The notes under the pieces: generated by a model
Told to the model about the DNA's origin: nothing
Database searches by the model: none
The model's input: the letters and a program-made list of their open reading frames with translations, nothing else
Position numbers and translations under genes: made by a program
Part shown: positions 13,646 to 45,109 of the stretch, one piece after another
Layout: the number at the start of each line of letters is the position of its first letter
Numbering within the stretch: the first letter of the stretch is position 1
Virus record (IMG/VR): IMGVR_UViG_3300037087_000773
Reading direction: 5' to 3' (one strand)
DNA: 46,145 nt
Source of the DNA: a virus

Positions 13646-16600
13646 ATGAATCAGATTGATGATATTATCAAAAGTAGTAATTCCCAAGCCGGTCAAGATG
13701 TATTTGCTTATTATATATGTGACACGAACAATGGATATTTTATTGATATTGGATCTGGAACTCCAATCGGTATGAATAACACATATTTATTAGAAAAAAA
13801 CGGATGGAATGGATTAAACTTTGATTTTTGGGATAATAGAAAATCATATGAGGAATCCAGACGAACACCTTACATTATGGAAGATGTAAATAAAATAAAT
13901 ATGTCGAATTTTTTAGAAAAAATGAATTCTCCAAAAGTCGTAGATTATTTATCAATAGACATAGATGAAAATACTGATTATTTTCTATCTAATAATTTTC
14001 CTACTGATTACGAATTCAAAGTCATCACATTTGAACATAATTTATATCTCGATGGAGATTCATTGAAAAACAAATCAAAAAATTTCTTCATAGAACACGG
14101 ATATACTTTATTATGTGAAAATGTTGCACTCAGTTTCACATCCAAATATGATGTTTTTGAAGATTGGTACATCAATGAAAAATATATTGATATTAAGAAA
14201 TTCGAATTTTTGAAATCTTGTGGTTTACACTTTACTGAAATAATAAACAAAATAAAAGAACATGAATTGAATAATATAAAAATTTGTCTTTATACCATGT
14301 GTATAAATGAAGAAGAATTCCTGCCATTTTTCTTGGATTATTACACAAATTATGTCGGGGTGGATAAAATAGTTATTTATGATGGTGGTTCAACAGATAA
14401 ATCACATAGTATAATAAATAGTTATCCGAATACGGAATTAATACTGGAGCATGATGATAAAACTGATTCCTTCAGAGATCTTAGGATATGGAATGAAGAA
14501 TGGAAAAAATGTCGTAATGATTATGATTGGATGATTGTATGTACACCAGATGAATTCTTATATCATCCAGATTTAAGGAATAAATTAATCGAATATAAAA
14601 AAAATGGAATTACCATCCCAAATGTAGAGGGATTTGATATGATATCTTTGAATCATCCTAATTATGATAAAGGAAATTATTTACCAAACCAAATAAAAAG
14701 AGGAATAAAAGATTCAACATTCTTAAACAAAAATATCATATTCAATCCAAAAGAGATTGATATTAATTATCATGTCGGTTGTCATGGTTGTAATCCCACT
14801 GGAAATATCAAATTCAGTGAAGAATATGATTTCAAATTACTTCATTATAAATGGATATCTTATGATTTTCTAATGAGAGATTCTAAAAGAAAATATGAAA
14901 GATTATCTGATAAAATGTTAGAAACAGGGGCTGGTGGACATTATAAAGTCTTTATTCAAAAAACATATGAAGAATATGTTCAAAGATATAATCAAACGAT
15001 ACAGGTTCTTGAAGAAGAAAAAGATATAAATCTTTTTTGGCATTGTTATCTCATTAATAATTGGGTGAAAATATTCAAAAATCAATTAAATAAAATTGTA
15101 GATAGTGGATTATATGAAAAACTTAATACCATTCATTTACATTATTTTGGAAAACCAGAAGAAGTTAAAATTTTATCAGAACTAATTTCAAGATATGATA
15201 AAATAAAGTCTTATGAAATAGAAGATAATTTTTATGAATATCCGACAATAAAACATATTCATAAATTTTCATCTGTAAACAATTCGTATGTTGGTTATAT
15301 TCATTTAAAAGGTGTCTGGAGTTCCATGAATAAAGAAAAAAATATTGAGGCTATAAATAGTTGGAGAAAATGTTTAGAATATTTCAACATAGAAAAATGG
15401 GATAACTGTATATCTAAGATAAATGAGGGTTATGAAGTGGTAGGGGCTTTATATAATTACAATGAAAAAGATCCCTTATTTAGTGGAAATTTTTGGTGGA
15501 CTACAACAGATTATATCAAAAAATTAAAATATCCTCAATATGATCCTTCAAAAAATCCATATCCAATGGATGATGGTACTTGGTGTAGGGTAGAATGTGA
15601 GAAATGGATAAATACAATACCGAATAAATTTTACAATTTTTATATACCAAAAGATTATGGTTTTTATCAAGTACCGATAGACGAAAATGATTATAAGGAT
15701 AAAAAGACAATAAATCATATTTATGAAAATATAGAGGGATGGTTTGATTTCGAAAAAATTTATTCTGATATGGTTAATAGATTTCCAAATGGATCTCATT
15801 TTGTTGAAATAGGTTCTTGGTTAGGAAAATCCACTTCTTATATGGGAGCTGAAATATCTAATTCGGGAAAAAAGATAAAATTCGATTCTATTGACACATG
15901 GGAGGGATCAAAAGGAAGTTGGGATGAACAAGTCCAGAATGACACAATAAATAATTTGAATATATCTTTATATCAAAAATTCTTAGAAAATGTAAGACCA
16001 GTTAAAGATTATATTAATCCAATCCAAGGATGGTCATATGATGTTGTTAATAGATATGAGGATAAATCCCTTGATTTTGTTTTTATCGATGGTGCTCATG
16101 ATTACGAATCTGTTAAAAAAGATATAAATGATTGGTATCCGAAAGTAAAAGATAATGGTGTTATAGCGGGTCATGATTATAATATTCACGATTGGCCGGG
16201 GGTCGTTCAAGCGGTAAATGAATTTTTTAATGAGGGAAATGTCTCAAGTGTCAAAAAAGATACTTGGTCTTGGATTGTAGATAAAAAAGAATTCGAAGAT
16301 TCGAAACAAAAAAATCATAAAATATCAATCATTATTCCGACATATAATCGTCCTGATATTTTAACAGAATGTATAAATTCAGTTTTAAAACAAAATTATG
16401 AAAATTTAGAAATACTTATTTGCCATGATGGTTTTTTTTCTGAATTTTATTGTTATGATTATAAGACCACAGACAAGAGAATATTCTATTACAATACAGA
16501 CAATCAATACAACAATCTGGGGGCGGCACAAAGAAATATGATGATATCAAAAGTAACTGGTGATTATATTCTTTTTTTAGATGATGATAATATTCTTTAT

Positions 16601-18493
16601 GATGGATATTTACAAAAGATGATAGAACAAATTGACAAAAATACAGGGATGGTTGTTTGTCGTATTCATTTTAATGATAAAGAATGGCTGAATTTAATAT
16701 TACCCCCTGATGATAGATTGATACCAGCCAAAATAGATCATCTTTCTATCCTCTTTAAAAGTGATATAGCAAAGAAATTTACATGGGATAATGATTGGGG
16801 TCAAGATCATCGTTTTATAAATAATTGTGAAAGATTATGTAATGAAAAAGGATTTGAAATAAAATATATTCCAAATATTCTTGCCAATCATCGTTATTTA
16901 AAAAGAGAGAATAGAATTGACGAATTATTAAAAGAAAAAAGATTAGAACAATATGATGATGATAATGGTGTAAATAGATTATTTGGATTAAAAAACATGA
17001 TAGATGAAAATCTAAACAAAGAATCTATAATATGTGAAGTAGGATCGTTTGATGGTAAATCCTCTGAATTGTTTGCACTATTAACTAAAAAGGTTTATTG
17101 TGTTGATCCTTGGGTTTTATATTCTCAGATAGATGATGAATCTATGATTAAATCCGAAGAAAAATTTGATAAATTATTGAATAAGTATAACAATATAATT
17201 AAAATAAAAAATTACAGTATAGAAGCCTCGAAAACATTTGAAAATGAATTTTTGGATTGTGTTTATATTGATGGTAATCATGATTATGAACCAGTTAAAC
17301 AAGATATCTTACATTGGATTCCAAAAATAAAAAGGGGAGGGTTCATAAGTGGACACGATTATCATTTTGAGGGAGTAAGAAAATCTCTAAATGAATTATT
17401 TCAAAATATTCCGATAAAAGTTTATTCCGACCAAAGTTGGGTTGTAAAAATAAATGATTATAGAAAGGGTGAAAAACCACATAAAGAAGTAGTCATTATG
17501 ACATCTCACCCAAACTATAAAATGTCAGAAGATATAACTAAACTGGCCATTAATTCTTTTGATAATAAAGATGTGATATTATCTGTACATTGTCCAGTAT
17601 CCATAGAATTACAAAATAAAGTAAAATATTTATTATATGATAAAAATAATCCCTTAATTCGTCATGATTATTATAATCAAAGTTGGTTTGAAACGACTGA
17701 ATATTATTCATTGATTAAACTTCATTATAATGATAATGATTTTCAACACGCTTTGGCTGTTTATATTAATTATTACAATGGTATAATGTATGCTAAATCA
17801 TTGGGTTATACGACAGCTATTTGTACCAATTTTGATATAGTTTTCAGTAAAGAAGATCTGAAAATAGTTGACGAAAAAATTAGTGAAATGTATCAATCTG
17901 GAAAAAAATCATTCTTTATGACATCAAATCCGAGTGAGGGAATACATTATAAAACAATTTTCTTTATAACAGATGTGGATTTCTTTTTGAATAATTTTAA
18001 ATATGTAACCAATGAGAAAGATTATAACAAACTAACCAGAGAAGTAGGATCTGAAACAAATTGTTTAGAGAATTTTTTCTATGAAACTTTAAAAAATTCA
18101 GATAAATTATTACTTCAACAAATAGAAGAAAAGGAATTATTTTCAAAAAGTAAGGTGAATATGTTCTCAAATATAGAATATTTCACTATTCTCCCACTGA
18201 GAGATGATAATGAACATTTTGTTATTTGGTTTAGTTCAGCAAATTCGATTGATAATAGGTCTATTGGAATCCATGTCCTAAAAGGAAGGGAAGCTATTTT
18301 TAGCCACAGTGGAAATATCAGTAAGGATTATAAATTCTATAAGGAAATAAAATTCGAGAAGGACTGTAATTATGAAGTAATATGTAATGTATATTACGAT
18401 GATATGGTAAATCAGAAAACAATTACCGTCAATAACGATGTTTTCTATAACAAATTAAAAGATTACGGAGATTTCTGGAAGAAATCAGTATAA
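13646..18493 (+). CDS. 1615-aa multidomain glycan-tailoring enzyme (FkbM-MT / GT-A / unknown / class-I MT / GT2 / class-I MT / unknown)
   Basis: Around aa 10-190, FkbM-like (AGQDVFAYYI...GYFIDIGSGTPIGMNNTYLLEKNGWNGLNFD). Around aa 205-330, GT-A domain (ICLYTMCINEEEFLPFFLDYYTNYVGVDKIVIYDGGSTD). Around aa 700-870, class-I SAM methyltransferase of Methyltransf_24 type (HFVEIGSWLGKST...DFVFIDGAHDYESVKKDINDWYPKVKDNGVIAGHDY). Around aa 890-1100, GT2 (ISIIIPTYNRPDILTECINSVLKQNYENLEIL...FLDDDN). Around aa 1130-1250, a second Methyltransf_24 domain (ICEVGSFDGKS...CVYIDGNHDYEPVKQDILHWIPKIKRGGFISGHDY). The aa 440-690 region and the C-terminal roughly 330 aa are unassigned. Confidence 0.8.
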   Translation: MNQIDDIIKSSNSQAGQDVFAYYICDTNNGYFIDIGSGTPIGMNNTYLLEKNGWNGLNFDFWDNRKSYEESRRTPYIMEDVNKINMSNFLEKMNSPKVVDYLSIDIDENTDYFLSNNFPTDYEFKVITFEHNLYLDGDSLKNKSKNFFIEHGYTLLCENVALSFTSKYDVFEDWYINEKYIDIKKFEFLKSCGLHFTEIINKIKEHELNNIKICLYTMCINEEEFLPFFLDYYTNYVGVDKIVIYDGGSTDKSHSIINSYPNTELILEHDDKTDSFRDLRIWNEEWKKCRNDYDWMIVCTPDEFLYHPDLRNKLIEYKKNGITIPNVEGFDMISLNHPNYDKGNYLPNQIKRGIKDSTFLNKNIIFNPKEIDINYHVGCHGCNPTGNIKFSEEYDFKLLHYKWISYDFLMRDSKRKYERLSDKMLETGAGGHYKVFIQKTYEEYVQRYNQTIQVLEEEKDINLFWHCYLINNWVKIFKNQLNKIVDSGLYEKLNTIHLHYFGKPEEVKILSELISRYDKIKSYEIEDNFYEYPTIKHIHKFSSVNNSYVGYIHLKGVWSSMNKEKNIEAINSWRKCLEYFNIEKWDNCISKINEGYEVVGALYNYNEKDPLFSGNFWWTTTDYIKKLKYPQYDPSKNPYPMDDGTWCRVECEKWINTIPNKFYNFYIPKDYGFYQVPIDENDYKDKKTINHIYENIEGWFDFEKIYSDMVNRFPNGSHFVEIGSWLGKSTSYMGAEISNSGKKIKFDSIDTWEGSKGSWDEQVQNDTINNLNISLYQKFLENVRPVKDYINPIQGWSYDVVNRYEDKSLDFVFIDGAHDYESVKKDINDWYPKVKDNGVIAGHDYNIHDWPGVVQAVNEFFNEGNVSSVKKDTWSWIVDKKEFEDSKQKNHKISIIIPTYNRPDILTECINSVLKQNYENLEILICHDGFFSEFYCYDYKTTDKRIFYYNTDNQYNNLGAAQRNMMISKVTGDYILFLDDDNILYDGYLQKMIEQIDKNTGMVVCRIHFNDKEWLNLILPPDDRLIPAKIDHLSILFKSDIAKKFTWDNDWGQDHRFINNCERLCNEKGFEIKYIPNILANHRYLKRENRIDELLKEKRLEQYDDDNGVNRLFGLKNMIDENLNKESIICEVGSFDGKSSELFALLTKKVYCVDPWVLYSQIDDESMIKSEEKFDKLLNKYNNIIKIKNYSIEASKTFENEFLDCVYIDGNHDYEPVKQDILHWIPKIKRGGFISGHDYHFEGVRKSLNELFQNIPIKVYSDQSWVVKINDYRKGEKPHKEVVIMTSHPNYKMSEDITKLAINSFDNKDVILSVHCPVSIELQNKVKYLLYDKNNPLIRHDYYNQSWFETTEYYSLIKLHYNDNDFQHALAVYINYYNGIMYAKSLGYTTAICTNFDIVFSKEDLKIVDEKISEMYQSGKKSFFMTSNPSEGIHYKTIFFITDVDFFLNNFKYVTNEKDYNKLTREVGSETNCLENFFYETLKNSDKLLLQQIEEKELFSKSKVNMFSNIEYFTILPLRDDNEHFVIWFSSANSIDNRSIGIHVLKGREAIFSHSGNISKDYKFYKEIKFEKDCNYEVICNVYYDDMVNQKTITVNNDVFYNKLKDYGDFWKKSV

Positions 18494-18754: not shown

Positions 18755-18823
18755 ACTGTTTCAGGTTTAAGAATACAAAGATATGACAACTTTTCAGATA
18801 AAAAAATTAATATATAAGAAAAA

Positions 18824-19351
18824 ATGAATAATCCAATTATGAAACCACTTAAAAAATTCGAACAGTTTGTGAATGAAGATGTATTGAAAGAAGCCCCAGC
18901 TTCTGTTCAAATGAAATATAATAATTATACTGAACTCGAACAAAAAGCTGTAGCTAAAAGAATTCTTTCAAAAGACAATTCGTTTTCTCCGTATGAAGCT
19001 GAACAATGGGCAAAAAATTATGATTTTTTAAAACAAGAATACGGTGAAGATTACGATTCCGTGGCAGATGAAATAATAAAGGATAGAAACAAGGAAAGAG
19101 AAGAAAAAATGAAAAATCCTATCTTATTAAAGGTTGTTGATGGTATCAACTCTGGTAAATTAAAAATTCTAAGGGGTGGTGAAAAAATGTATGGAAATAT
19201 AAAATTATCCATTACCGAATTAGTTTGGGCTCGTAACTTTGAAGATGGTTTCGACATCGATGTGTATGATGGTAAATTTGGTAGTCATGTTGGTTCAATC
19301 TCTTTGACGGCATCCACCGATTGGAAACCAAAAATAACAGAAGCTTTTTAA
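18824..19351 (+). CDS. small protein with N-terminal KKFEQFVNE leader (T4 capsid-targeting-sequence-like)
   Basis: MNNPIMKPLKKFEQFVNEDV... A second Met at 18839 would place the leader at residue 1. V-N-E fits the (I/L/V)-x-E pattern. Confidence 0.5.
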   Translation: MNNPIMKPLKKFEQFVNEDVLKEAPASVQMKYNNYTELEQKAVAKRILSKDNSFSPYEAEQWAKNYDFLKQEYGEDYDSVADEIIKDRNKEREEKMKNPILLKVVDGINSGKLKILRGGEKMYGNIKLSITELVWARNFEDGFDIDVYDGKFGSHVGSISLTASTDWKPKITEAF

Positions 19352-19353
19352 TT

Positions 19354-19653
19354 ATGAAATCACTTAAAAAATTCGAACAGTTTATAAATGAGATGAAAAC
19401 CAATCTATATTATGCACATATTGATGAGTTATACAAAGAAATAGAAAAAGATGAATATCTTCTATATGAATATCAGTCCTATGTTAGAGTAAATGATTTT
19501 GATGGTTTAAAAACATTCGTTGATAAAAATTTCGGATATTCTGAACAACAGTTTGAATACCTAAAAATGAAATTCGAGAAAGATGTAATCGAATACAAAA
19601 AGGATGATGAATCTGAAACAAAATCATTTAAACAAGAACACAATTTAGATTAA
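19354..19653 (+). CDS. small protein with N-terminal KKFEQFINE leader
   Basis: The ATG at 19354 lies 2 nt after the upstream stop: MKSLKKFEQFINEMKTN... The ORF track's start at 19321 is a TTG and is rejected. The body is unrelated to that of the upstream gene. Confidence 0.5.
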   Translation: MKSLKKFEQFINEMKTNLYYAHIDELYKEIEKDEYLLYEYQSYVRVNDFDGLKTFVDKNFGYSEQQFEYLKMKFEKDVIEYKKDDESETKSFKQEHNLD

Positions 19654-19830
19654 ATGATAACACAATTCGAAAAATATATTCTTGAGGATAATCAATTTTT
19701 GAATTCCATAAAAATTGTTTATGAAGATGATTTAAAATCAAATTCAATAATAACAATAAGGGCATTTCATGAGAAAGAAGAAGTAGGTTCAGTAATATTA
19801 GAAGAATGTATGGGGTTAACCAACTGCTAA
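19654..19830 (+). pseudogene. N-terminal fragment of a GNAT acetyltransferase (58 aa) truncated at the left end of the TnpB element
   Basis: MITQFEKYILEDNQFLNSIKIVYEDDLKSNSIITIRAFHEKEEVGSVILEE resembles GNAT beta2-beta3. It ends at TAA 19828-19830, immediately before the left inverted repeat. Confidence 0.4.
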
Positions 19831-21230
19831 TAAAAATCTAACATTATCTACAAGAAATTACCAAAACTTACAAGTAAAAATAAATATGGAAAAAATCGGT
19901 ATTTTTAATTAATATATAGTATTTATAAGAAAGGGAATAAAACACCACCTTTTTTGTAATCTATGTTGAAAGCAATTAAAATACGATTATATCCAACGAA
20001 AACTCAAACAAGTTACATTAACCGCTTGTGTGGTTCATATCGTAAAGTATATAATATGTGTCTGGAAAAGAAGATAAACGCTTATAACAATGATAAAACC
20101 AGTTTAGGACTAACTGAACTTGGTCATTATTTTCATAACGAACTGACCAAGACAGAAGCGTTTTCATACCTGAATGAACATAACACCAAAGTGCTGAAAC
20201 AATCTGTCATAAATTTGTTAGATAGTTACAAACGATTCTTTGTTAACAACACAGGTTTCCCAAAATATAAATCCAAACACGATAATCAATCAGCCAGATT
20301 TCCGATTGAAGGTATATCAAAGTATAATATTTATTCAGATAACCGTGTAACGCTTGGTAAGTCATTGAAGAAAGTTAAATTTGAATGCTCAGACAGAGAT
20401 AAAACATATCTAACCAATTATAAAGATAAAATAAAGTCAGCAACACTATCCAGAACTAAATCTGATAAATATTTTCTTTCTATTTTGATTGAAAATATTA
20501 TAGAACCGATGGTAAATCCGACCAATGATATCATAGGTGTTGATGTTGGCATCAAGGATTTTATGGTTTGTTCAGATGGTCAGGTATTTGATAACTTGAA
20601 ATTAAAACGAAATAATGAAAAGACATTGGTTAAACTTCAACGCCAGTTATCGAAAAAAGTTGTTGGGAGTCATAATAGATATAAAGCCAAGGTAAAACTT
20701 GCAAGAAAATATGAAAAATTAAATAATAAGAAAATAAATTACATACATAACATTACAACTCAATTAGTTCGTGAGAACCAAACGATTGTTATTGAAGATT
20801 TGAATGTTAAAGGTATGATGAAAAACCATTGTTTGGCAAAGTCAATTCAAGACCTTTCAATTAATGAAACATTTAGACAATTAAAGTATAAATGTGAATG
20901 GTATGGAAGAGATTTGGTAGTGATAGATAGATGGTTTCCAAGTAGTAAACTATGTTCAAACTGTGGATATAAGTATAAAAACTTATCATTAAAAGAAAGA
21001 GATTGGGTGTGCCCTGATTGTGGTACACACCATTCAAGGGATTTCAACGCAGCGACAAACATAGTTAACGAAGGAAAGAGATTGATAGGTAGCCGTTCTA
21101 CCGAATTTACGCTTGCGGAGTATCCGCTTATGGATGACAAGGGAGTAATCCCCCTAAAAAGTAATGATACGATGAAACAAGAAGAATCAAATTTAACAAG
21201 GTTGTAGATTTTGTTAGATTTATTTTAACG
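19826..21230 (+). mobile_element. IS605/IS607-type (TnpB/Fanzor-like) element inserted into a GNAT gene
   Basis: Imperfect terminal inverted repeat: AAATCTAACA at 19834-19843 is reverse-complemented by TGTTAGATTT at 21212-21221. About 20 of 25 flanking positions match as an extended inverted repeat. The only ORF inside is tnpB. The GNAT reading frame stops just before the left repeat and resumes right after 21228. Confidence 0.55.
19963..21207 (+). CDS. tnpB: TnpB / OrfB RNA-guided-endonuclease-like transposon protein (414 aa)
   Basis: N-terminus IKIRLYPTKTQTSYINRLCGSYRKVYN (OrfB_IS605 N-terminal). RuvC-I IGVDVGIKDF. RuvC-II TIVIEDLNVKGM. Zinc finger CSNCGYKY...CPDCG. RuvC-III HSRDFNAATNI. 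All catalytic residues are present. Confidence 0.85.
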   Translation: MLKAIKIRLYPTKTQTSYINRLCGSYRKVYNMCLEKKINAYNNDKTSLGLTELGHYFHNELTKTEAFSYLNEHNTKVLKQSVINLLDSYKRFFVNNTGFPKYKSKHDNQSARFPIEGISKYNIYSDNRVTLGKSLKKVKFECSDRDKTYLTNYKDKIKSATLSRTKSDKYFLSILIENIIEPMVNPTNDIIGVDVGIKDFMVCSDGQVFDNLKLKRNNEKTLVKLQRQLSKKVVGSHNRYKAKVKLARKYEKLNNKKINYIHNITTQLVRENQTIVIEDLNVKGMMKNHCLAKSIQDLSINETFRQLKYKCEWYGRDLVVIDRWFPSSKLCSNCGYKYKNLSLKERDWVCPDCGTHHSRDFNAATNIVNEGKRLIGSRSTEFTLAEYPLMDDKGVIPLKSNDTMKQEESNLTRL

Positions 21231-21534
21231 GTCTTATTGGTATTTTGAAGATGATTTTTCAGAAGATGAATACAATGAATTATTTCCAGATGACCAATTC
21301 ATGAAAATACAACACTTAGAAATAAAACACAAGAAAAGTGGATTGGCTCGAAAATTAATGTTATTAGCCATTGAGAAATGCAAAGAATTAGGATTCAATA
21401 AAATTTATTTAAATGCCTCACCAATTGGACAAGAGGGATTGGAAATAACTGATTTGGTTTGGTTTTATAAAGGTTTCGGTTTTAAAGAGATACTAAATCA
21501 GGGACATAATGTTCAAATGTTATTGAATGTCTGA
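21229..21534 (+). pseudogene. C-terminal fragment of a GNAT acetyltransferase (frame open from 21229; first ATG at 21301)
   Basis: ...HLEIKHKKSGLARKLMLLAIEKCKELGFNKIYLNASP...FYKGFGFKE contains GNAT motif A (R/Q-x-x-G-x-A, acetyl-CoA binding) and the C-terminal beta strands. The frame is open for 24 codons upstream of the first ATG with no Met, which is consistent with a split gene. Confidence 0.55.
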
Positions 21535-22029
21535 CTTCAATAAAAAAGAAATTACATTTTGTAAAGGGGATTGTAACGATTTGATTATTTCCACTATTTT
21601 ATCATTTTTATTTTCATATTTAAAATCCATGTAAAATAGCGTACCACTTGGTGCATTTAATGGTTCACCAAAAGATTTGGTGAACTCCTTTTTCATATCT
21701 TCCAACTTCTGGTAATCTGTATCTACCTCATTAAAGATATCTTCTAATATCTTTTTTCTTTTCTCATTGGTATATTTTTCTTCATCTAATTCGTCTAATA
21801 AATCCAATCCCATTGTTTGTGCTGCTATTTTCATAGCGATTGGAAGAAGTATACCATCGAAAGAAGATGTAACACCAGATGGTGTAGAATCATCATTCTC
21901 TATTTTTTCTTCGATAGATTCAGCATATTCTGATAACCATTTCTTTTTCTCTTTATCTTGAATATTTAAAGAATTGATAATTGGTGCCCATTTTTTATAA
22001 AGGGATTCCTTATCTGGAGATTCGAACAT
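21520..22029 (-). CDS. hypothetical acidic protein (169 aa), last gene of the minus-strand accessory operon
   Basis: Intact ORF convergent with the GNAT fragment. No motif recognised. Confidence 0.45.
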   Translation of the reverse strand: MFESPDKESLYKKWAPIINSLNIQDKEKKKWLSEYAESIEEKIENDDSTPSGVTSSFDGILLPIAMKIAAQTMGLDLLDELDEEKYTNEKRKKILEDIFNEVDTDYQKLEDMKKEFTKSFGEPLNAPSGTLFYMDFKYENKNDKIVEIIKSLQSPLQNVISFLLKSDIQ

Positions 22030-22769: not shown

Positions 22770-23309
22770 TTATCCCTTTCTAAGTTGATTAAATTCTAAT
22801 GTCAATGGAGTTTTTCTACCAAATATTTTTACTGATACAGTAATTCTTCTTTTTTCCTCATTAATTTCATCAACAGTAGCATTGAAATTAGCGAAAGGAC
22901 CATCTGAAATAGTAACATTTTCCCCAATAACAAAAGGTATTTTAACTGAATCTGGACTTTCATTCATTTCATCAAGTTTCCCTAATATTCTCGCCACTTC
23001 AACATCTCTTAAAGGTTCTGGTGTACCACCCTTTGGTCCAAGAAAATGAAGAGCCCCAGTAATACTTTTTAAAATTCCTGTGAATTCACCACACATTTCG
23101 GCCTCTAAGAGGATATATCCCGGAAAATAGTTAACTTCACGAGTAACTTTCTTTCCATTTTTCACATAAAATTCCTTATGAGTAGGTATCACAATTTGAG
23201 ATACCTTATCTTTAAGCCCGTATTTTTCTATTTCACTTTCAAATTGTTTCTTAACTCTTTTTTCCCATCCACTATTTGAACGGATTACATACCATCTCAT
23301 ATTTGACAT
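22770..23309 (-). CDS. nusG: transcription termination/antitermination factor NusG (bacterial type, 179 aa)
   Basis: NGN domain: RWYVIRSNSGWEKRVKKQFESEIEKYGLKDKVSQIVIPTHKEF...VNYFPGYILLEA. The E. coli equivalent is RWYVVQAFSGFEGRV...VMVPTEEV...RKFFPGYVLV. KOW motif: FVIGENVTISDGPFANFNATVDEINEEKRRITVSVKIFGRKTPLTLEFNQL (E. coli [51 protein letters not shown]). It is not in the canonical secE-nusG-rplK context. Confidence 0.85.
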   Translation of the reverse strand: MSNMRWYVIRSNSGWEKRVKKQFESEIEKYGLKDKVSQIVIPTHKEFYVKNGKKVTREVNYFPGYILLEAEMCGEFTGILKSITGALHFLGPKGGTPEPLRDVEVARILGKLDEMNESPDSVKIPFVIGENVTISDGPFANFNATVDEINEEKRRITVSVKIFGRKTPLTLEFNQLRKG

Positions 23310-41303: not shown

Positions 41304-42275
41304 ATGTCTAAAATAAAAAATTTCAAAGAATTTTTGAAAGAAGAAGTATATGTTCAACCACAACCGGCTGTTCAACAGACACAACCACCTGTTCAAAATT
41401 CTGTTCAACCAACTCAATCTCAACCAGAAGCTAAGAAATTAGATCCAACAAAAGTGAACAAGAAGATTGATTTTACCTACTTAAACAAAGATGCTAATGT
41501 AGATAAAATAAGACAAATTTGTGAAACAGCTAAAAGTCCTGAAAATTTGAATTATATTTTCGGGGTTGTTGTTGGACCAGAATTTGTTTCGGAAACAAAA
41601 AAATATTTGGAAGATAGTGGAATAAAGACAATAACTGTCATTTCTTATCCTGATGGAGATGATAAGAATTCAATAAAAATGAAAGCATTACAAAAAGCTA
41701 TTTCAGAAGGTGCCGAAGAAGTTAATGTTGTTATGGATTATAAAAAATTAACAGATGCATTAATCGAGACTGATAAGGAAAAACAAGAAAAGATGATACA
41801 AACTATCCAAACAGACATAAGATCTTTGGTGGAGTATTGTAAAGAAAGAAGTACAATAATAAAAATAATCATTGAAATGGAAGCTTTGTCTGATACTAAA
41901 ACCATTTCAAAGGCCGTTGAAATTTGTAAAAAAACAAATGTTGATTTCATAACAACATCAACTGGTATGTATACAAGAAATACTAATTATACTTTCGAAA
42001 AGAAAATGAAAGATGTAACTGAAGTAATTGTACCTATGATTGAAGGAATGGATGATATAAATATAAATGTTTGTGGTGGAGTAAATGGAAGTGACAAATT
42101 AATGTTGTGTTTAAGTAATAATAAAATTCAAAGAATTTCAAGTTCCATGACGCCACAAACCTTACTAAATAAACAATCTCCACCACCACAAACTCAAATA
42201 CAATCACCTGATTCACCAGCTCAAACAACACAATCTCAGCCTATACAACCACAATCTCAACCACCTCAACAATAA
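41304..42275 (+). CDS. protein with N-terminal KNFKEFLKEE leader and P/Q-rich low-complexity termini (323 aa)
   Basis: MSKIKNFKEFLKEEVYVQPQPAVQQTQPPVQNSVQPTQSQPE... The C-terminus is QSPPPQTQIQSPDSPAQTTQSQPIQPQSQPPQQ. Confidence 0.5.
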   Translation: MSKIKNFKEFLKEEVYVQPQPAVQQTQPPVQNSVQPTQSQPEAKKLDPTKVNKKIDFTYLNKDANVDKIRQICETAKSPENLNYIFGVVVGPEFVSETKKYLEDSGIKTITVISYPDGDDKNSIKMKALQKAISEGAEEVNVVMDYKKLTDALIETDKEKQEKMIQTIQTDIRSLVEYCKERSTIIKIIIEMEALSDTKTISKAVEICKKTNVDFITTSTGMYTRNTNYTFEKKMKDVTEVIVPMIEGMDDININVCGGVNGSDKLMLCLSNNKIQRISSSMTPQTLLNKQSPPPQTQIQSPDSPAQTTQSQPIQPQSQPPQQ

Positions 42276-42286
42276 AGCACAAAAAA

Positions 42287-42314
42287 ACCCAGAAAAATCT
42301 GGGTTTTTGTTTTT
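42287..42314. terminator. bidirectional intrinsic-terminator-like hairpin
   Basis: ACCCAGA-AAAA-TCTGGGT (7-bp stem, 42287-42304), preceded by an A-run (42281-42287) and followed by TTTTGTTTTT. It sits between the convergent genes 41304..42275(+) and 42313..42783(-). Confidence 0.6.
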
Positions 42315-42783
42315 ACATAGTTGGTAAAAGATATCCAAATTCCTGATATATATCTTTACAAAGTTGAATTAATTTTTCTCTGTGCTCTTTTTCAGTATCA
42401 CTCAATTTACCTGCGATTGTATCCATATTTTTATAACAATCTTGTAATTCCTCGTAAGTATTCTCGAACCTGCAATGGCTCATGTTCGTTTCATTAATAA
42501 CACTTTCACTGACCTCAATTGATGGGAATTCTTTTTTTACGGCTCTTTTAACAGAATTTTTCAATGAGTCTAAATCACCATCATACCAAGGTGGTACACT
42601 TTTATATTGTTCAACTCTTGCTAATGCGTTTCTTCCTTGACCCAAATCATTTATTGTGAAATGGTCTTTCTTTACACCTTTCACCTCTTTTACTTTTGGA
42701 TGTTCAGCTGGAAAAATACATTTTCCCCTGTTCCTATATTTAGGAATCCTTTTTTCATTTACAAATTCATTAAATTTTTTCAT
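42313..42783 (-). CDS. small protein with N-terminal MKKFNEFVNE leader (156 aa)
   Basis: MKKFNEFVNEKRIPK... Its C-terminal region (EKEHREKLIQLCKDIYQEF) is paralogous to the next gene (EREYYYKLVDLCREFL). Confidence 0.5.
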   Translation of the reverse strand: MKKFNEFVNEKRIPKYRNRGKCIFPAEHPKVKEVKGVKKDHFTINDLGQGRNALARVEQYKSVPPWYDGDLDSLKNSVKRAVKKEFPSIEVSESVINETNMSHCRFENTYEELQDCYKNMDTIAGKLSDTEKEHREKLIQLCKDIYQEFGYLLPTM

Positions 42784-42791
42784 TTTATCAA

Positions 42792-43061
42792 TTATAATTT
42801 TAAAGATGGATGTGATCTTGTAGCTAAAAACTCTCTACAAAGATCCACTAACTTATAATAATATTCTCGTTCTCTTTTTGATAAATCAACACCAGTTCCA
42901 CTCAAATTTTTGAATGATTTTTTCGAATCATCAATTCCATTTGACATGATATCAAAACAATCCGATAATTTATTATAAGCTTCTTCGAAACCAACATTCA
43001 ATCCGTATTTATCACCACTCAGATTGAGTTCTTCATTAATAAATTCATTAAACTTTTTCAT
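42792..43061 (-). CDS. small protein with N-terminal MKKFNEFINE leader (89 aa)
   Basis: MKKFNEFINEELNLSG... It is a paralog of 42313..42783. Confidence 0.5.
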   Translation of the reverse strand: MKKFNEFINEELNLSGDKYGLNVGFEEAYNKLSDCFDIMSNGIDDSKKSFKNLSGTGVDLSKREREYYYKLVDLCREFLATRSHPSLKL

Positions 43062-43753: not shown

Positions 43754-44341
43754 TTAATTGTATGAGGCTAAATCATTAGCCATTTCTTCTGCACAATCAA
43801 AATCAGAGGGTGAATCATATTCATCCCATCTATAAGAATCATTATCCATTAATCTTTTGGATAAATAATTCCTCAATTTTTTATCTGATTGTACTTGATC
43901 CAGTGCCATATCCATCAATTCACTATGATTATAGGGTTCGCCATTTCTATCATCCAATCCTGAGGTCGCTATACTTTGACATATTTCCTTGTATTCTTTT
44001 TCGGATATCATTTTTTCTTTTGATAACTTGGGTGTTTTTACTGGTTTCGTTTTTTCCTTATATTCATTCTTCAATTTTGCTGGCATAATGTATTCATAAT
44101 GTCTTGGATTATCTAATACGATTTCTCTTACCCCATTTCCATCACATTGTTTTAAAGTTGGTGTTTTTCCCGGTGTAATTACCACAAAATCATATTCTTC
44201 TTTCCAAGATGGATGTTTCAATGTTACAACCTCATCCTTTGTATACTCATAATCTTTAATTATATCGTCATTTACTTTATAATCATATTCAAATTTCTTT
44301 AATTCGAATATAAAACTTTGATAATCTTTTATATTTTTCAT
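43754..44341 (-). CDS. hypothetical protein (195 aa)
   Basis: Intact ORF with LKKFEYDY near the N-terminus. No domain recognised. Confidence 0.45.
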   Translation of the reverse strand: MKNIKDYQSFIFELKKFEYDYKVNDDIIKDYEYTKDEVVTLKHPSWKEEYDFVVITPGKTPTLKQCDGNGVREIVLDNPRHYEYIMPAKLKNEYKEKTKPVKTPKLSKEKMISEKEYKEICQSIATSGLDDRNGEPYNHSELMDMALDQVQSDKKLRNYLSKRLMDNDSYRWDEYDSPSDFDCAEEMANDLASYN

Positions 44342-44353
44342 GTAAATATATAT

Positions 44354-45109
44354 TTATTTTTTAAATTCATTTCCTAATTTCAAAGCTTCTTCCTCGGTCA
44401 TGTTTACCATATCATTCTTTGTTAGTTTATCAGGTCTTTTACTCCATTCCACCTTAGCTGCTATATTATGGGCATTATCATACTTCATCCCTTTCTCTTT
44501 CATTAATGTTCTTTCAACATACTCATGTATGAGGACAAATGGGATTTCCTTATCTTTCAATCCATCTTCAATCCAAATTTCATTATTAGGAATCCATTTA
44601 TAAACATAGCCGTGCCCGCCCTCCATAAAATCCGTCTTATATTTATCTCTAACCATTTCTGCATCAACCAGCCAAACCGTCAAATCATCATCTTTTATTT
44701 TACAATATTCTTTCTTATAAATTTTTTCATGACCTTTTTCATCCGTCTTTTCTGGATTCTTATCTCTTTCTTCTCTATATTTCTTATCCATTTTTTCGGC
44801 TTTATGATAAGCATCCCACTTTTCCATCCCATTATCAATCAACTTTAACTTATACAATTCGATATGAATTAGAATATTTCTTTCATCTGTTTTAACATCA
44901 TCCTCAATCCAGATCTCATTTTTTGGAATAAGATTAGGAAAATATGGATATGATGACGATAATCCGAATTCTTCATCACCTTTCGTTAAATCTCTCACTT
45001 TCTCTCCATTTACTGTATAAACTTTATATTTACCGTATTGTTCCACAAGTTCTTTTCCAACATCCTCATTTTTCTTTTCATTAATAAATTCAACAAAGGT
45101 CTTGATCAT
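44354..45109 (-). CDS. protein with N-terminal MIKTFVEFINE leader and an internal tandem-duplicated domain
   Basis: The ORF-track start at 45148 is a TTG. The first ATG is at 45109 and gives MIKTFVEFINEKKNEDV. Two repeats are present: NLIPKNEIWIEDDVKTDERNILIHIELY...GMEKWDAYHKA and KWIPNNEIWIEDGLKDKEIPFVLIHEYV...GMKYDNAHNIA. Confidence 0.5.
   Translation of the reverse strand: MIKTFVEFINEKKNEDVGKELVEQYGKYKVYTVNGEKVRDLTKGDEEFGLSSSYPYFPNLIPKNEIWIEDDVKTDERNILIHIELYKLKLIDNGMEKWDAYHKAEKMDKKYREERDKNPEKTDEKGHEKIYKKEYCKIKDDDLTVWLVDAEMVRDKYKTDFMEGGHGYVYKWIPNNEIWIEDGLKDKEIPFVLIHEYVERTLMKEKGMKYDNAHNIAAKVEWSKRPDKLTKNDMVNMTEEEALKLGNEFKK

What the first reader, a model, noticed from the sequence alone, without database searches (positions are those of the whole stretch)
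18824..19830. Second mini-cluster of leader-tagged genes directly abutting a transposon-disrupted GNAT
Two back-to-back genes (18824 and 19354) start with (MKPL/MKSL)KKFEQF[VI]NE, yet their bodies are unrelated. This shows the leader is a portable module.

The adjacent GNAT fragment (19654) begins MITQFEKYILED, which also has F-E-K-Y-I-L-E (I-L-E). Before its disruption it may have been a packaged acetyltransferase, analogous to the packaged ADP-ribosyltransferase Alt of T4.
Basis: inference. Interest (0 to 1): 0.6.

Follow-up and report, generated by a model that had tools for sequence, protein, structure and literature searches.

The report
T4-like capsid-targeting leaders in huge phage
Two neighbouring, unrelated genes of a roughly 736-kb uncultured phage start with the same 13-residue tag, which closely matches the signal phage T4 uses to load proteins into its head, and the adjacent acetyltransferase gene, split by a mobile element, carries a weaker version of that tag.

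Summary
ORF A (true start 18839, not 18824) and ORF B (19354) begin MKPLKKFEQFVNE and MKSLKKFEQFINE. Their bodies show no similarity.

The tag belongs to a family of at least 13 N-terminal leaders in this genome. A PSSM built from those leaders ranks the T4 capsid-targeting sequences of IPII and IPIII (MKTYQEFIAE) as its top hits in 100 kb of T4, with IPI lower down. It also finds 18 leader-bearing N-termini in the related 634-kb phage LR745206, against 1.6 expected after shuffling.

LR745206 has a T4-type head module:
- a gp20 portal;
- a gp23 capsid protein;
- a gp21-like protease fused to 10 to 11 repeats of YSEY[IL]AE.

The ORF A domain occurs elsewhere without the leader, so the leader is a portable module.

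The GNAT gene is split precisely by a 1,416-bp TnpB-only IS. Its start, MITQFEKYILED, scores poorly on the PSSM. Three other lines still support a leader:
- it matches MITKFENFINED on an unrelated protein of the same genome;
- it lies outside the predicted fold;
- GNAT orthologues in two other phages share N-termini with unrelated neighbours.

Packaging and cleavage are inferred, not shown. This is a new member of a known kind.

The parts
18808..18822 (+). Promoter-like motif TAATATATAAG about 30 nt upstream of ORF A
   Evidence: The motif is conserved in L002. AATATATA lies 13-32 nt upstream of many first genes of gene runs. Its function is inferred.
18839..18877 (+). Leader of ORF A, MKPLKKFEQFVNE (13 codons)
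   Evidence: The leader is invariant or changed at one residue in P0001-P0003 and P0005 while the bodies diverge. The six differences from the L002 orthologue are all synonymous.
18839..19351 (+). ORF A, 170 aa: leader, disordered linker, helical domain, then a small beta domain of unknown function
   Evidence: AF2 gives pLDDT 71, with residues 1-30 below 50. There is no Pfam or fold match. The beta domain is widespread without the leader.
19354..19392 (+). Leader of ORF B, MKSLKKFEQFINE
   Evidence: 35 of 39 nt match the ORF A leader, including the rarer codons CTT, TTC and CAG, plus 4 identical nt upstream.
19354..19653 (+). ORF B, 99 aa, an orphan protein unrelated to ORF A
   Evidence: The only database hit is itself. 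There is no BLASTP similarity to ORF A. It is called as 99 aa in L063 and L064.
19654..19686 (+). GNAT N-terminal appendage MITQFEKYILE, a divergent 'MIT-type' leader
   Evidence: 3.2 bits; 8 of 12 identical to MITKFENFINED; outside the fold.
19654..19815 (+). GNAT gene, 5' part (54 codons). The ORF then runs on for 4 IS-derived codons to a stop at 19830.
19816..21231 (+). TnpB-only IS200/IS605-family element, 1,416 bp, ends uncertain by 2-3 nt
   Evidence: Removing it restores a collinear GNAT ORF (EECMG-S-YWYFEDD), matching the intact orthologue L067. A hairpin at 21189-21221 lies near the right end. The same insertion is present in all 6 contigs that carry this TnpB.
19963..21207 (+). tnpB, 414 aa
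   Evidence: Pfam: HTH_OrfB_IS605 9e-13, OrfB_IS605 2e-22, Cas12f1-like_TNB 1e-22.
21232..21534 (+). GNAT gene, 3' part, carrying the acetyl-CoA-binding region
21520..22029 (-). 169-aa paralogue of the N-terminal region of a gp23-type major capsid protein
   Evidence: phmmer gives 1.4e-10 against the LR745206 capsid protein. tblastn hits only Mahaphage genomes. There is a weak phrog_138 hit.
3336..3794 (-). Leader-tagged gene, MKMIKAYNDFIKE
   Evidence: 16.5 bits.
3804..4187 (-). 127-aa protein with 3 degenerate copies of the protease-scaffold repeat (YSNYIKE, YQEYLAN, YNDFIVQ)
   Evidence: BLASTP gives 6e-11 against the repeat array of LR745206 198546-200669.
4187..4618 (-). Leader-tagged gene, MKKVYEDLIKE
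   Evidence: 12.6 bits.
41304..42275 (+). Leader-tagged DeoC-family aldolase: MSKIKNFKEFLKEE followed by a P/Q-rich linker
   Evidence: DeoC 4.7e-9; 15.1 bits.
42313..42783 (-). Leader-tagged gene, MKKFNEFVNE
   Evidence: 20.2 bits.
42792..43061 (-). Leader-tagged gene, MKKFNEFINE. It aligns residue for residue with the T4 CTS MKTYQEFIAE.
   Evidence: (20.9 bits).
43754..44341 (-). Leader-tagged gene, MKNIKDYQSFIFE
   Evidence: 14.3 bits.
44354..45109 (-). Leader-tagged gene, MIKTFVEFINE (251 aa from the inner Met)
   Evidence: called as 251 aa; 19.5 bits.

Best explanation
The window comes from an uncultured huge phage. Its proteins occur on a 736,551-bp contig, and its relatives are the 634-735-kb 'Mahaphage' genomes.

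ORF A and ORF B are unrelated cargo genes. Each is fused to a 13-residue N-terminal leader of the type [FY]-x-x-[FL]-[IVL]-x-E.

The leader most likely works like the T4 capsid-targeting sequence (CTS).
1. It tethers the protein to the scaffolding core of the prohead. That core is itself built of repeats of a similar motif.
2. A gp21-like prohead protease removes the leader after the Glu.
3. The mature protein stays in the head and enters the host with the DNA.

The leader DNA is nearly identical between neighbouring genes. New cargo genes therefore seem to acquire it by copying or recombination.

The GNAT acetyltransferase downstream carries a divergent 'MIT-type' leader. It was probably such a cargo before a TnpB-only IS split it between strands beta3 and beta4.

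Shown here: the leader family, its match to the T4 CTS, its portability, the T4-type head module in a relative, and the precise IS insertion. Inferred: targeting, cleavage and injection.
For: **Family and N-terminal restriction.**

**Selection acts on the protein.** The ORF A leader differs from its L002 orthologue at 6 sites, all synonymous.

**Match to the T4 CTS.**
- The T4 core YQEFIAE scores 12.8 bits on a PSSM built only from this phage's leaders. Only 1 of 13,228 internal 7-mers scores as high.
- Run on T4 positions 50-150 kb, that PSSM puts ipII and ipIII on top and also finds ipI at 8.7 bits.
- The T4 CTS sequence is given in PMC8442874. In PMC9026906, residues 4 and 7 govern targeting and residues 8 and 10 govern processing. 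These are the positions conserved here.

**T4-type head module in relative LR745206.**
- Portal_T4, 3e-57.
- Gp23, 2e-26.
- A 707-aa protein matching phrog_207 (head maturation protease, 4e-30), with weak matches to Peptidase_S77 and to T4 gp21. It carries 10-11 tandem YSEY[IL]AE repeats.

**Head-related genes inside the window.** One ORF carries the scaffold repeat and another is a paralogue of the capsid-protein N-terminus.

**Portability.**

**The leader lies outside the folded domains.**

**GNAT.**

**Cargo in LR745206 looks like counter-defence enzymes.** A 2H/Acb1-like phosphoesterase with an exonuclease domain, an RNA ligase 1, a SMODS-associated NUDIX and a DHH protein carry the leader.
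Against: - No virion proteome or cleavage data exist for this or any related huge phage.
- The protease, scaffold and capsid genes of the window's own genome could not be retrieved. They were seen only in a relative that shares about 30-40% protein identity.
- The scaffold repeats score low on the leader PSSM (about 1-2 bits), so that resemblance is at the level of pattern only.
- Some tagged proteins (DeoC aldolase, RNA ligase) are not known to be packaged in T4.
- The leader is made almost entirely of AT-rich codons, as expected if 5' coding regions are selected for expression.
- The GNAT core scores only 3.2 bits.
- One gene caller starts ORF B at the inner Met, without the leader.
Confidence: 0.6

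Rival explanations
1. The leader is an expression module. It would be an unstructured, AT-rich 5' coding stretch that boosts translation initiation and is copied between genes, with no role in protein targeting.
For: - The leader consists of K, F, N, E and I codons, nearly all A/T.
- It occurs on metabolic and repair enzymes.
- MKKFNEFxNE starts unrelated proteins in viral contigs of 21-44% GC.
Against: - The residue order matters, not only the composition. Shuffling residues 2-17 abolishes the signal: 18 observed against 1.6 expected in LR745206.
- Orthologous leaders differ only at synonymous sites.
- The four positions shown to be functional in the T4 CTS are the conserved ones.
Confidence: 0.15
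2. The shared leader is mainly a DNA-level recombination handle or duplication scar that lets gene cassettes move. Any protein function is secondary.
For: - The ORF A and ORF B leaders match at 35 of 39 nt and share rare codons.
- In L023 the GNAT orthologue and its unrelated upstream neighbour share near-identical leader DNA.
- ORF B and the GNAT are absent from syntenic L002.
Against: - This does not explain amino-acid conservation across orthologues that differ at synonymous sites.
- It does not explain conservation across distant phages and T4.
- It is compatible with, rather than an alternative to, a targeting role.
Confidence: 0.15
3. The GNAT N-terminus only looks like a leader by chance. 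It is an ordinary N-terminal extension of this GNAT family, and the enzyme acted in the cytoplasm.
For: - The core FEKYILE scores 3.2 bits. About 0.34% of internal 7-mers score as high, which gives roughly 2 chance hits among 55 N-termini.
- Distant orthologues start MKLTxLYxExLE or otherwise.
Against: - It matches MITKFENFINED of the same genome at 8 of 12 residues.
- In L025 the start MITx[FY] is shared by the GNAT, a 485-aa protein and an ART-PolyVal protein. In L023 the leader is shared with the upstream neighbour.
- The appendage is unstructured.
- 14 of 16 orthologues have [ILV]-x-E before strand beta1, against 29% of background ORFs. The orthologues are not independent of one another.
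Confidence: 0.4

Closest known systems
[quoted passage not shown]
   Same: - An N-terminal tag of 10-13 residues on otherwise unrelated proteins.
- An aromatic residue at the equivalents of T4 positions 4 and 7, I/L/V at 8 and Glu at 10.
- MKKFNEFINE aligns with the T4 CTS without gaps.
- MKTFKEFVNE, found just left of the window, shares 7 residues with IPI.
- Tagged genes sit in variable clusters.
- The clade has T4-type portal, protease and capsid genes.
   Different: - The host is a roughly 736-kb Mahaphage-clade phage, predicted to infect Bacteroidetes.
- There are many more tagged genes: at least 13 in about 64 kb.
- The cargo includes sizeable enzymes rather than small basic proteins.
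- The leaders of ORF A and ORF B have 3 extra N-terminal residues.
- Nothing has been shown experimentally.
T4 Alt, the packaged ADP-ribosyltransferase
   Same: It is an enzyme with a short N-terminal propeptide ending in I-x-E (MELITE in T4), carried in the head and injected. In relative L025 an ART-PolyVal protein carries the same MIT-type start as the GNAT orthologue.
   Different: The gene here is a GNAT acetyltransferase, not an ADP-ribosyltransferase. It is disrupted, and its packaging is only inferred.
Propeptide-bearing head and ejection proteins of giant phages phiKZ, 201phi2-1 and SPN3US
   Same: Large phages load many proteins into the head and trim them after Glu with a gp21-related protease (PMC9026906).
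   Different: Those phages use long propeptides with multiple cleavage sites, not a short conserved N-terminal tag.
IS200/IS605-family TnpB-only elements (IS1341-like)
   Same: The TnpB domain architecture, the small size, a hairpin near the right end, and a precise insertion.
   Different: - There is no TnpA.
- The element sits inside a huge-phage gene.
- It carries the phage's AATATATA promoter-like motif upstream of tnpB.

Membership tests
T4-type capsid-targeting sequence (CTS) | A short N-terminal tag (about 10-19 aa) shared by otherwise unrelated proteins | tested here: met
   ORF A and ORF B bodies give no BLASTP hit.
T4-type capsid-targeting sequence (CTS) | Aromatic residues at the equivalents of T4 positions 4 and 7 (targeting), and I/L plus Glu at positions 8 and 10 (processing) | tested here: met
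   PSSM results. The functional positions come from PMC9026906. The GNAT meets the pattern but scores low.
T4-type capsid-targeting sequence (CTS) | The genome encodes a gp21-type prohead protease, a scaffold core and a gp23-type capsid protein | tested here: inconclusive
   Met in relative LR745206. The window's own genome yielded only a scaffold-repeat ORF and a paralogue of the capsid-protein N-terminus. The rest of the 736-kb contig could not be fetched.
T4-type capsid-targeting sequence (CTS) | The tag is cleaved after Glu and the mature protein is present in virions | not testable with these tools
   This needs proteomics or biochemistry.
GNAT acetyltransferase | GNAT fold and acetyl-CoA-binding region | tested here: met
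   - Orthologues carry PF00583 and PF13673.
- The AF2 model of P0006 has pLDDT 85.
- Foldseek hits include Naa60, PaiA and other GNATs at about 1e-6.
- The profile hits Naa30 at 9e-7.
GNAT acetyltransferase | An intact reading frame | tested here: not met
   The gene is split at 19815/21232 by the IS.
IS200/IS605 family | TnpB with HTH, OrfB_IS605 (RuvC) and zinc-ribbon domains | tested here: met
IS200/IS605 family | A TnpA Y1 transposase (autonomous element) | tested here: not met
   tnpB is the only sizeable same-strand ORF between 19816 and 21231. The element is therefore non-autonomous.
IS200/IS605 family | A right-end-derived guide RNA (omega RNA) | not tested
   The Rfam gathering-threshold scan of the window found nothing. 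No dedicated model was built.

The most novel reading that the evidence does not exclude
The largest known phages (Mahaphage clade) use a T4-CTS-like tag that is itself one unit of the tandem repeat in their protease-scaffold fusion protein. With it they load dozens of enzymes into the head for co-injection. Candidate cargo includes an Acb1-like phosphoesterase with an exonuclease domain, an RNA ligase, a SMODS-associated NUDIX, a DHH protein, ADP-ribosyltransferases and this GNAT. The near-identical leader DNA doubles as a recombination handle, so cargo cassettes are swapped rapidly. If so, the injected proteome of uncultured huge phages could be read directly from sequence.
Probability: 0.35. 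Interest if true: 0.75.

Novelty: new member of a known kind. Interest (0 to 1): 0.55.

Why it matters
If the leader is a capsid-targeting signal, a simple sequence motif would predict which proteins uncultured huge phages carry in their heads and inject. That includes likely counter-defence enzymes, and no virions would be needed to find them.

It would also extend the T4 CTS mechanism, known from about 170-kb phages, to the largest phage genomes. It suggests how the tag may work, by mimicking the scaffold repeat, and how cargo sets turn over, by recombination at the leader.

The searched literature holds no description of such leaders in huge phages.

Tried and rejected
- **DNA search of the phage collection (18400-21700).** Only the TnpB matched, at about 65% identity.
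- **Pfam and PHROGs on ORF A, ORF B and most leader genes.** Nothing useful. The only hit was a weak match of ORF A to a scaffolding PHROG, E 0.0076, which I did not rely on.
- **Exact leader pattern KKFEQFxNE in IMG/VR.** It gave only internal chance hits in a nucleotidyltransferase. The full leader pattern in JGI metagenome contigs gave no hits.
- **ORF B.** No homologues were found.
- **ORF A.** The profile against PDB and a Foldseek search against viral structures gave nothing significant.
- **ORF 21520 against PDB.** No capsid hit. The link to the capsid protein came from phmmer against LR745206 instead.
- **T4 late promoter TATAAATA.** It is not associated with gene starts in the window.
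- **AATATATA motif.** It precedes leader and non-leader genes alike, so it is not evidence of co-regulation.
- **GNAT family in deposited phage genomes.** No match.
- **Rfam.** No hits in the window.
- **Orthologues of ORF A, ORF B or the GNAT in LR745206.** None were found.
- **The idea that within-genome leaders are more alike than orthologous leaders.** The raw counts are 35 and 33 of 39 nt, too close to decide. The shared rare codons are only suggestive.

Full report
**What is in the sequence**

The window is 28.8% G+C. ORF A was listed from 18824 (MNNPIMKPLKKFEQFVNE...). ORF B starts at 19354 (MKSLKKFEQFINE...), 2 nt after the stop of ORF A. A 58-codon ORF at 19654 (MITQFEKYILED...) follows directly.

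The true start of ORF A is 18839. The 81%-identical orthologue in L002 has no in-frame MNNPI, and database gene calls begin at MKPL.

ORF 19963-21207 is a TnpB: HTH_OrfB_IS605, OrfB_IS605 and Cas12f1-like_TNB, with E-values from 1e-13 to 1e-22. ORF 21301-21534 gives weak GNAT hits.

**Is the leader more than chance?**

- A loose regex for the core, [FY]x[EQDSKN][FLY][IVL]xE, hits 13 times in 55 ORFs (14,687 aa). Ten of the hits lie at the very N-terminus.
- The same genome continues in L043 and L046, which are 99.9-100% identical to the window. They add MKNISSFNEFTNE, MKYLKLFEDFISE, MITKFENFINED and MKTFKEFVNE.
- I built a PSSM from 13 cores, leaving out the GNAT. True members score 12.6-21 bits and the next N-terminus scores 4.9.
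- With residues 2-17 of each protein shuffled, which controls for N-terminal composition, the window gives 9 hits against 0.13 expected. That count is circular, because the PSSM was trained on these sequences.
- The independent 634-kb genome LR745206 gives 18 against 1.6, with a maximum of 8 in 200 shuffles.
- The ORF A leader differs from its L002 orthologue at 6 sites, all synonymous, so selection acts on the peptide.

**Are the bodies unrelated, and is the leader portable?**

BLASTP of leader-stripped proteins finds nothing between ORF A and ORF B. Almost nothing links the other tagged proteins either. ORF B has no homologue other than itself.

Orthologues of ORF A keep the leader (13/13, 12/13 and 12/13 residues) while the sequence after it diverges or is replaced.

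A profile search of 1.8 billion representatives gave two results.
- The C-terminal beta domain of ORF A occurs in dozens of 60-100-aa proteins that have no leader.
- Full-length relatives carry leader variants: MKTKFNQFNES, MKHLKNYKDYKVNE, MKYLKKFENFSLNE.

The syntenic relative L002 has ORF A but lacks ORF B, the GNAT and the IS.

The ORF A and ORF B leaders match at 35 of 39 nt, and the 4 nt upstream also match. They share the rarer codons CTT, TTC and CAG. This suggests the ORF B leader was copied from, or converted by, that of ORF A.

**What the leader resembles**

The T4 capsid-targeting sequence is MKTYQEFIAE (PMC8442874). T4 internal proteins share only this tag (PMC3012670). Residues 4 and 7 govern targeting, and residues 8 and 10 govern processing (PMC9026906).

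- MKKFNEFINE (42792-43061) aligns with the T4 tag residue for residue.
- The T4 core scores 12.8 bits on the PSSM built from this phage. Only 1 of 13,228 internal 7-mers scores as high.
- As a positive control I ran the PSSM on T4 positions 50-150 kb. The top hits are the N-termini of ipII and ipIII, and ipI (MKTFKEF...) is also found at 8.7 bits.

**Does the clade have T4-type head assembly?**

The window's proteins occur on contigs of up to 736,551 bp. ORF 21520-22029 hits only the 462-735-kb genomes of Al-Shayeb et al.. Their four largest complete genomes (634-735 kb) fall in the Mahaphage clade, predicted to infect Bacteroidetes (PMC7162821).

I fetched all of LR745206. It encodes:
- a gp20 portal (3e-57);
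- a gp23 capsid protein (2e-26);
- between them, a 707-aa protein whose N-terminal 265 residues match phrog_207, head maturation protease (4e-30). It matches Peptidase_S77 and T4 gp21 weakly. The protease domain is followed by 10-11 tandem 14-residue repeats, NIAYSEY[IL]AENLDK.

Each repeat contains Y-x-E-Y-[IL]-A-E, the pattern of the T4 CTS. The repeats score low on the leader PSSM, so this link is a pattern-level inference.

The window holds two related pieces:
- ORF 3804-4187 carries three degenerate copies of this repeat (6e-11);
- ORF 21520-22029 is a paralogue of the capsid protein's N-terminal region (1.4e-10).

A closer relative, L001, carries T4 gp13 and a small protease-like ORF followed by a repeat ORF.

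**The GNAT and the IS**

Joining 19654-19815 to 21232-21534 gives a 154-aa GNAT. It is collinear with intact orthologues of 45-71% identity. The junction reads EECMG-S-YWYFEDD, against EENIDAYWYFEDD in P0006.

The element spans 19816-21231 (1,416 bp). It has no TnpA and has a hairpin across the tnpB stop codon. It sits at the same place in all six contigs that carry this TnpB.

The AF2 model of P0006 has pLDDT 85 and matches GNAT structures. Residues 1-11 are unstructured and strand beta1 starts at residue 17.

Evidence that MITQFEKYILED is a leader is mixed.

Against:
- the PSSM score is 3.2 bits;
- distant orthologues start differently.

For:
- it matches MITKFENFINED at 8 of 12 residues (28 of 36 nt). 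That sequence starts an unrelated protein encoded just beyond the window;
- in L025 the GNAT orthologue (MITKYFLFE) shares its start with a 485-aa protein (MITKFQIFE) and an ART-PolyVal protein (MITEFKIYE);
- in L023 the orthologue (KSLKQLLRENLE) shares near-identical leader DNA with its unrelated upstream neighbour;
- 14 of 16 orthologues have [ILV]-x-E before strand beta1, against 29% of background ORFs. The orthologues are not independent.

**Mechanism and verdict**

The best reading is as follows. These are T4-CTS-type leaders that tether cargo to the scaffold core. A gp21-like protease removes them after the Glu, and the cargo stays in the head for injection.

Tagged proteins in LR745206 include an Acb1-like 2H phosphoesterase with an exonuclease domain, an RNA ligase 1, a SMODS-associated NUDIX and a DHH protein. 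This fits a counter-defence cargo, but it is also what makes the expression-module rival worth keeping.

Targeting, cleavage and injection are inferred. The kind of system is known from T4, and its occurrence in the largest phages is not described in the searched literature. I rate it a new member of a known kind, of moderate interest.

Noticed in passing
window 1-2424 (-): An 807-aa protein matches the major vault protein shoulder domain (6e-26) and the Vault_3 repeat (2e-11). This eukaryote-type vault protein homologue sits in a huge phage genome, and the same protein occurs on 14 contigs.
   Followed up: partly
window 21520-22029 (-): A 169-aa protein is homologous to the N-terminal region of the gp23-type capsid protein (KKWxPI..., LLPxAMKIAAQTxGLDL). 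It may be a capsid-protein decoy or a head-internal protein. An orthologue is present in L002.
   Followed up: partly
window 3804-4187 (-): A 127-aa protein carries three degenerate copies of the 14-aa repeat found in the LR745206 protease-scaffold protein. It lies between two leader-tagged genes.
   Followed up: partly
L054 2546-4669 (LR745206 198546-200669): A protease-scaffold fusion carries 10-11 near-perfect tandem repeats NIAYSEY[IL]AENLDK, followed by a very acidic tract. Each repeat contains a T4-type I/L-A-E cleavage motif.
   Followed up: partly
window 18809, 19911, 25008, 41275, 45134(-), 43733(-), 41240(-), 24477(-), 4649(-): The motif (T)TAATATATA(A/G) lies 24-32 nt upstream of the start codon of most of these genes (13 nt for 43754-44341, 52 nt for tnpB, which lies inside the IS). 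It also precedes the intact GNAT orthologue in L067. It looks like a phage promoter.
   Followed up: partly
window 19816-21231: The TnpB-only IS is present in all 6 contigs that carry this TnpB, from several samples. The sequence next to the right end (TCTTATTGG...) would be the guide target if TnpB homes into intact GNAT alleles.
   Followed up: partly
window 13646-18493 (+): A 1,615-aa protein combines two GT2 glycosyltransferase domains and two Methyltransf_24 domains. It is embedded in a roughly 40-kb stretch of sugar-modification genes, including a GDP-mannose dehydratase, FkbM and C-methyltransferases, and GT10 and GT25 enzymes.
   Followed up: no
window 22770-23309 (-): A phage-encoded NusG/KOW transcription factor lies next to a NUDIX hydrolase. 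The pair is conserved in L002.
   Followed up: no
L043 3934-4218, 7207-7404, 8852-9007; LR745206 208377-208791: A second family of N-termini, MKH[IL]K.F.(L)NE, occurs on very small proteins of 51-94 aa. It is related to, but distinct from, the main leader.
   Followed up: no
L022 2930-4777 and LR745206 105634-107625: A DHH-family phosphoesterase of 615-663 aa carries the leader in two unrelated viral contigs (MKKFNEFINEEVG and MISKYNQFINEEVG). This suggests a conserved tagged cargo.
   Followed up: no
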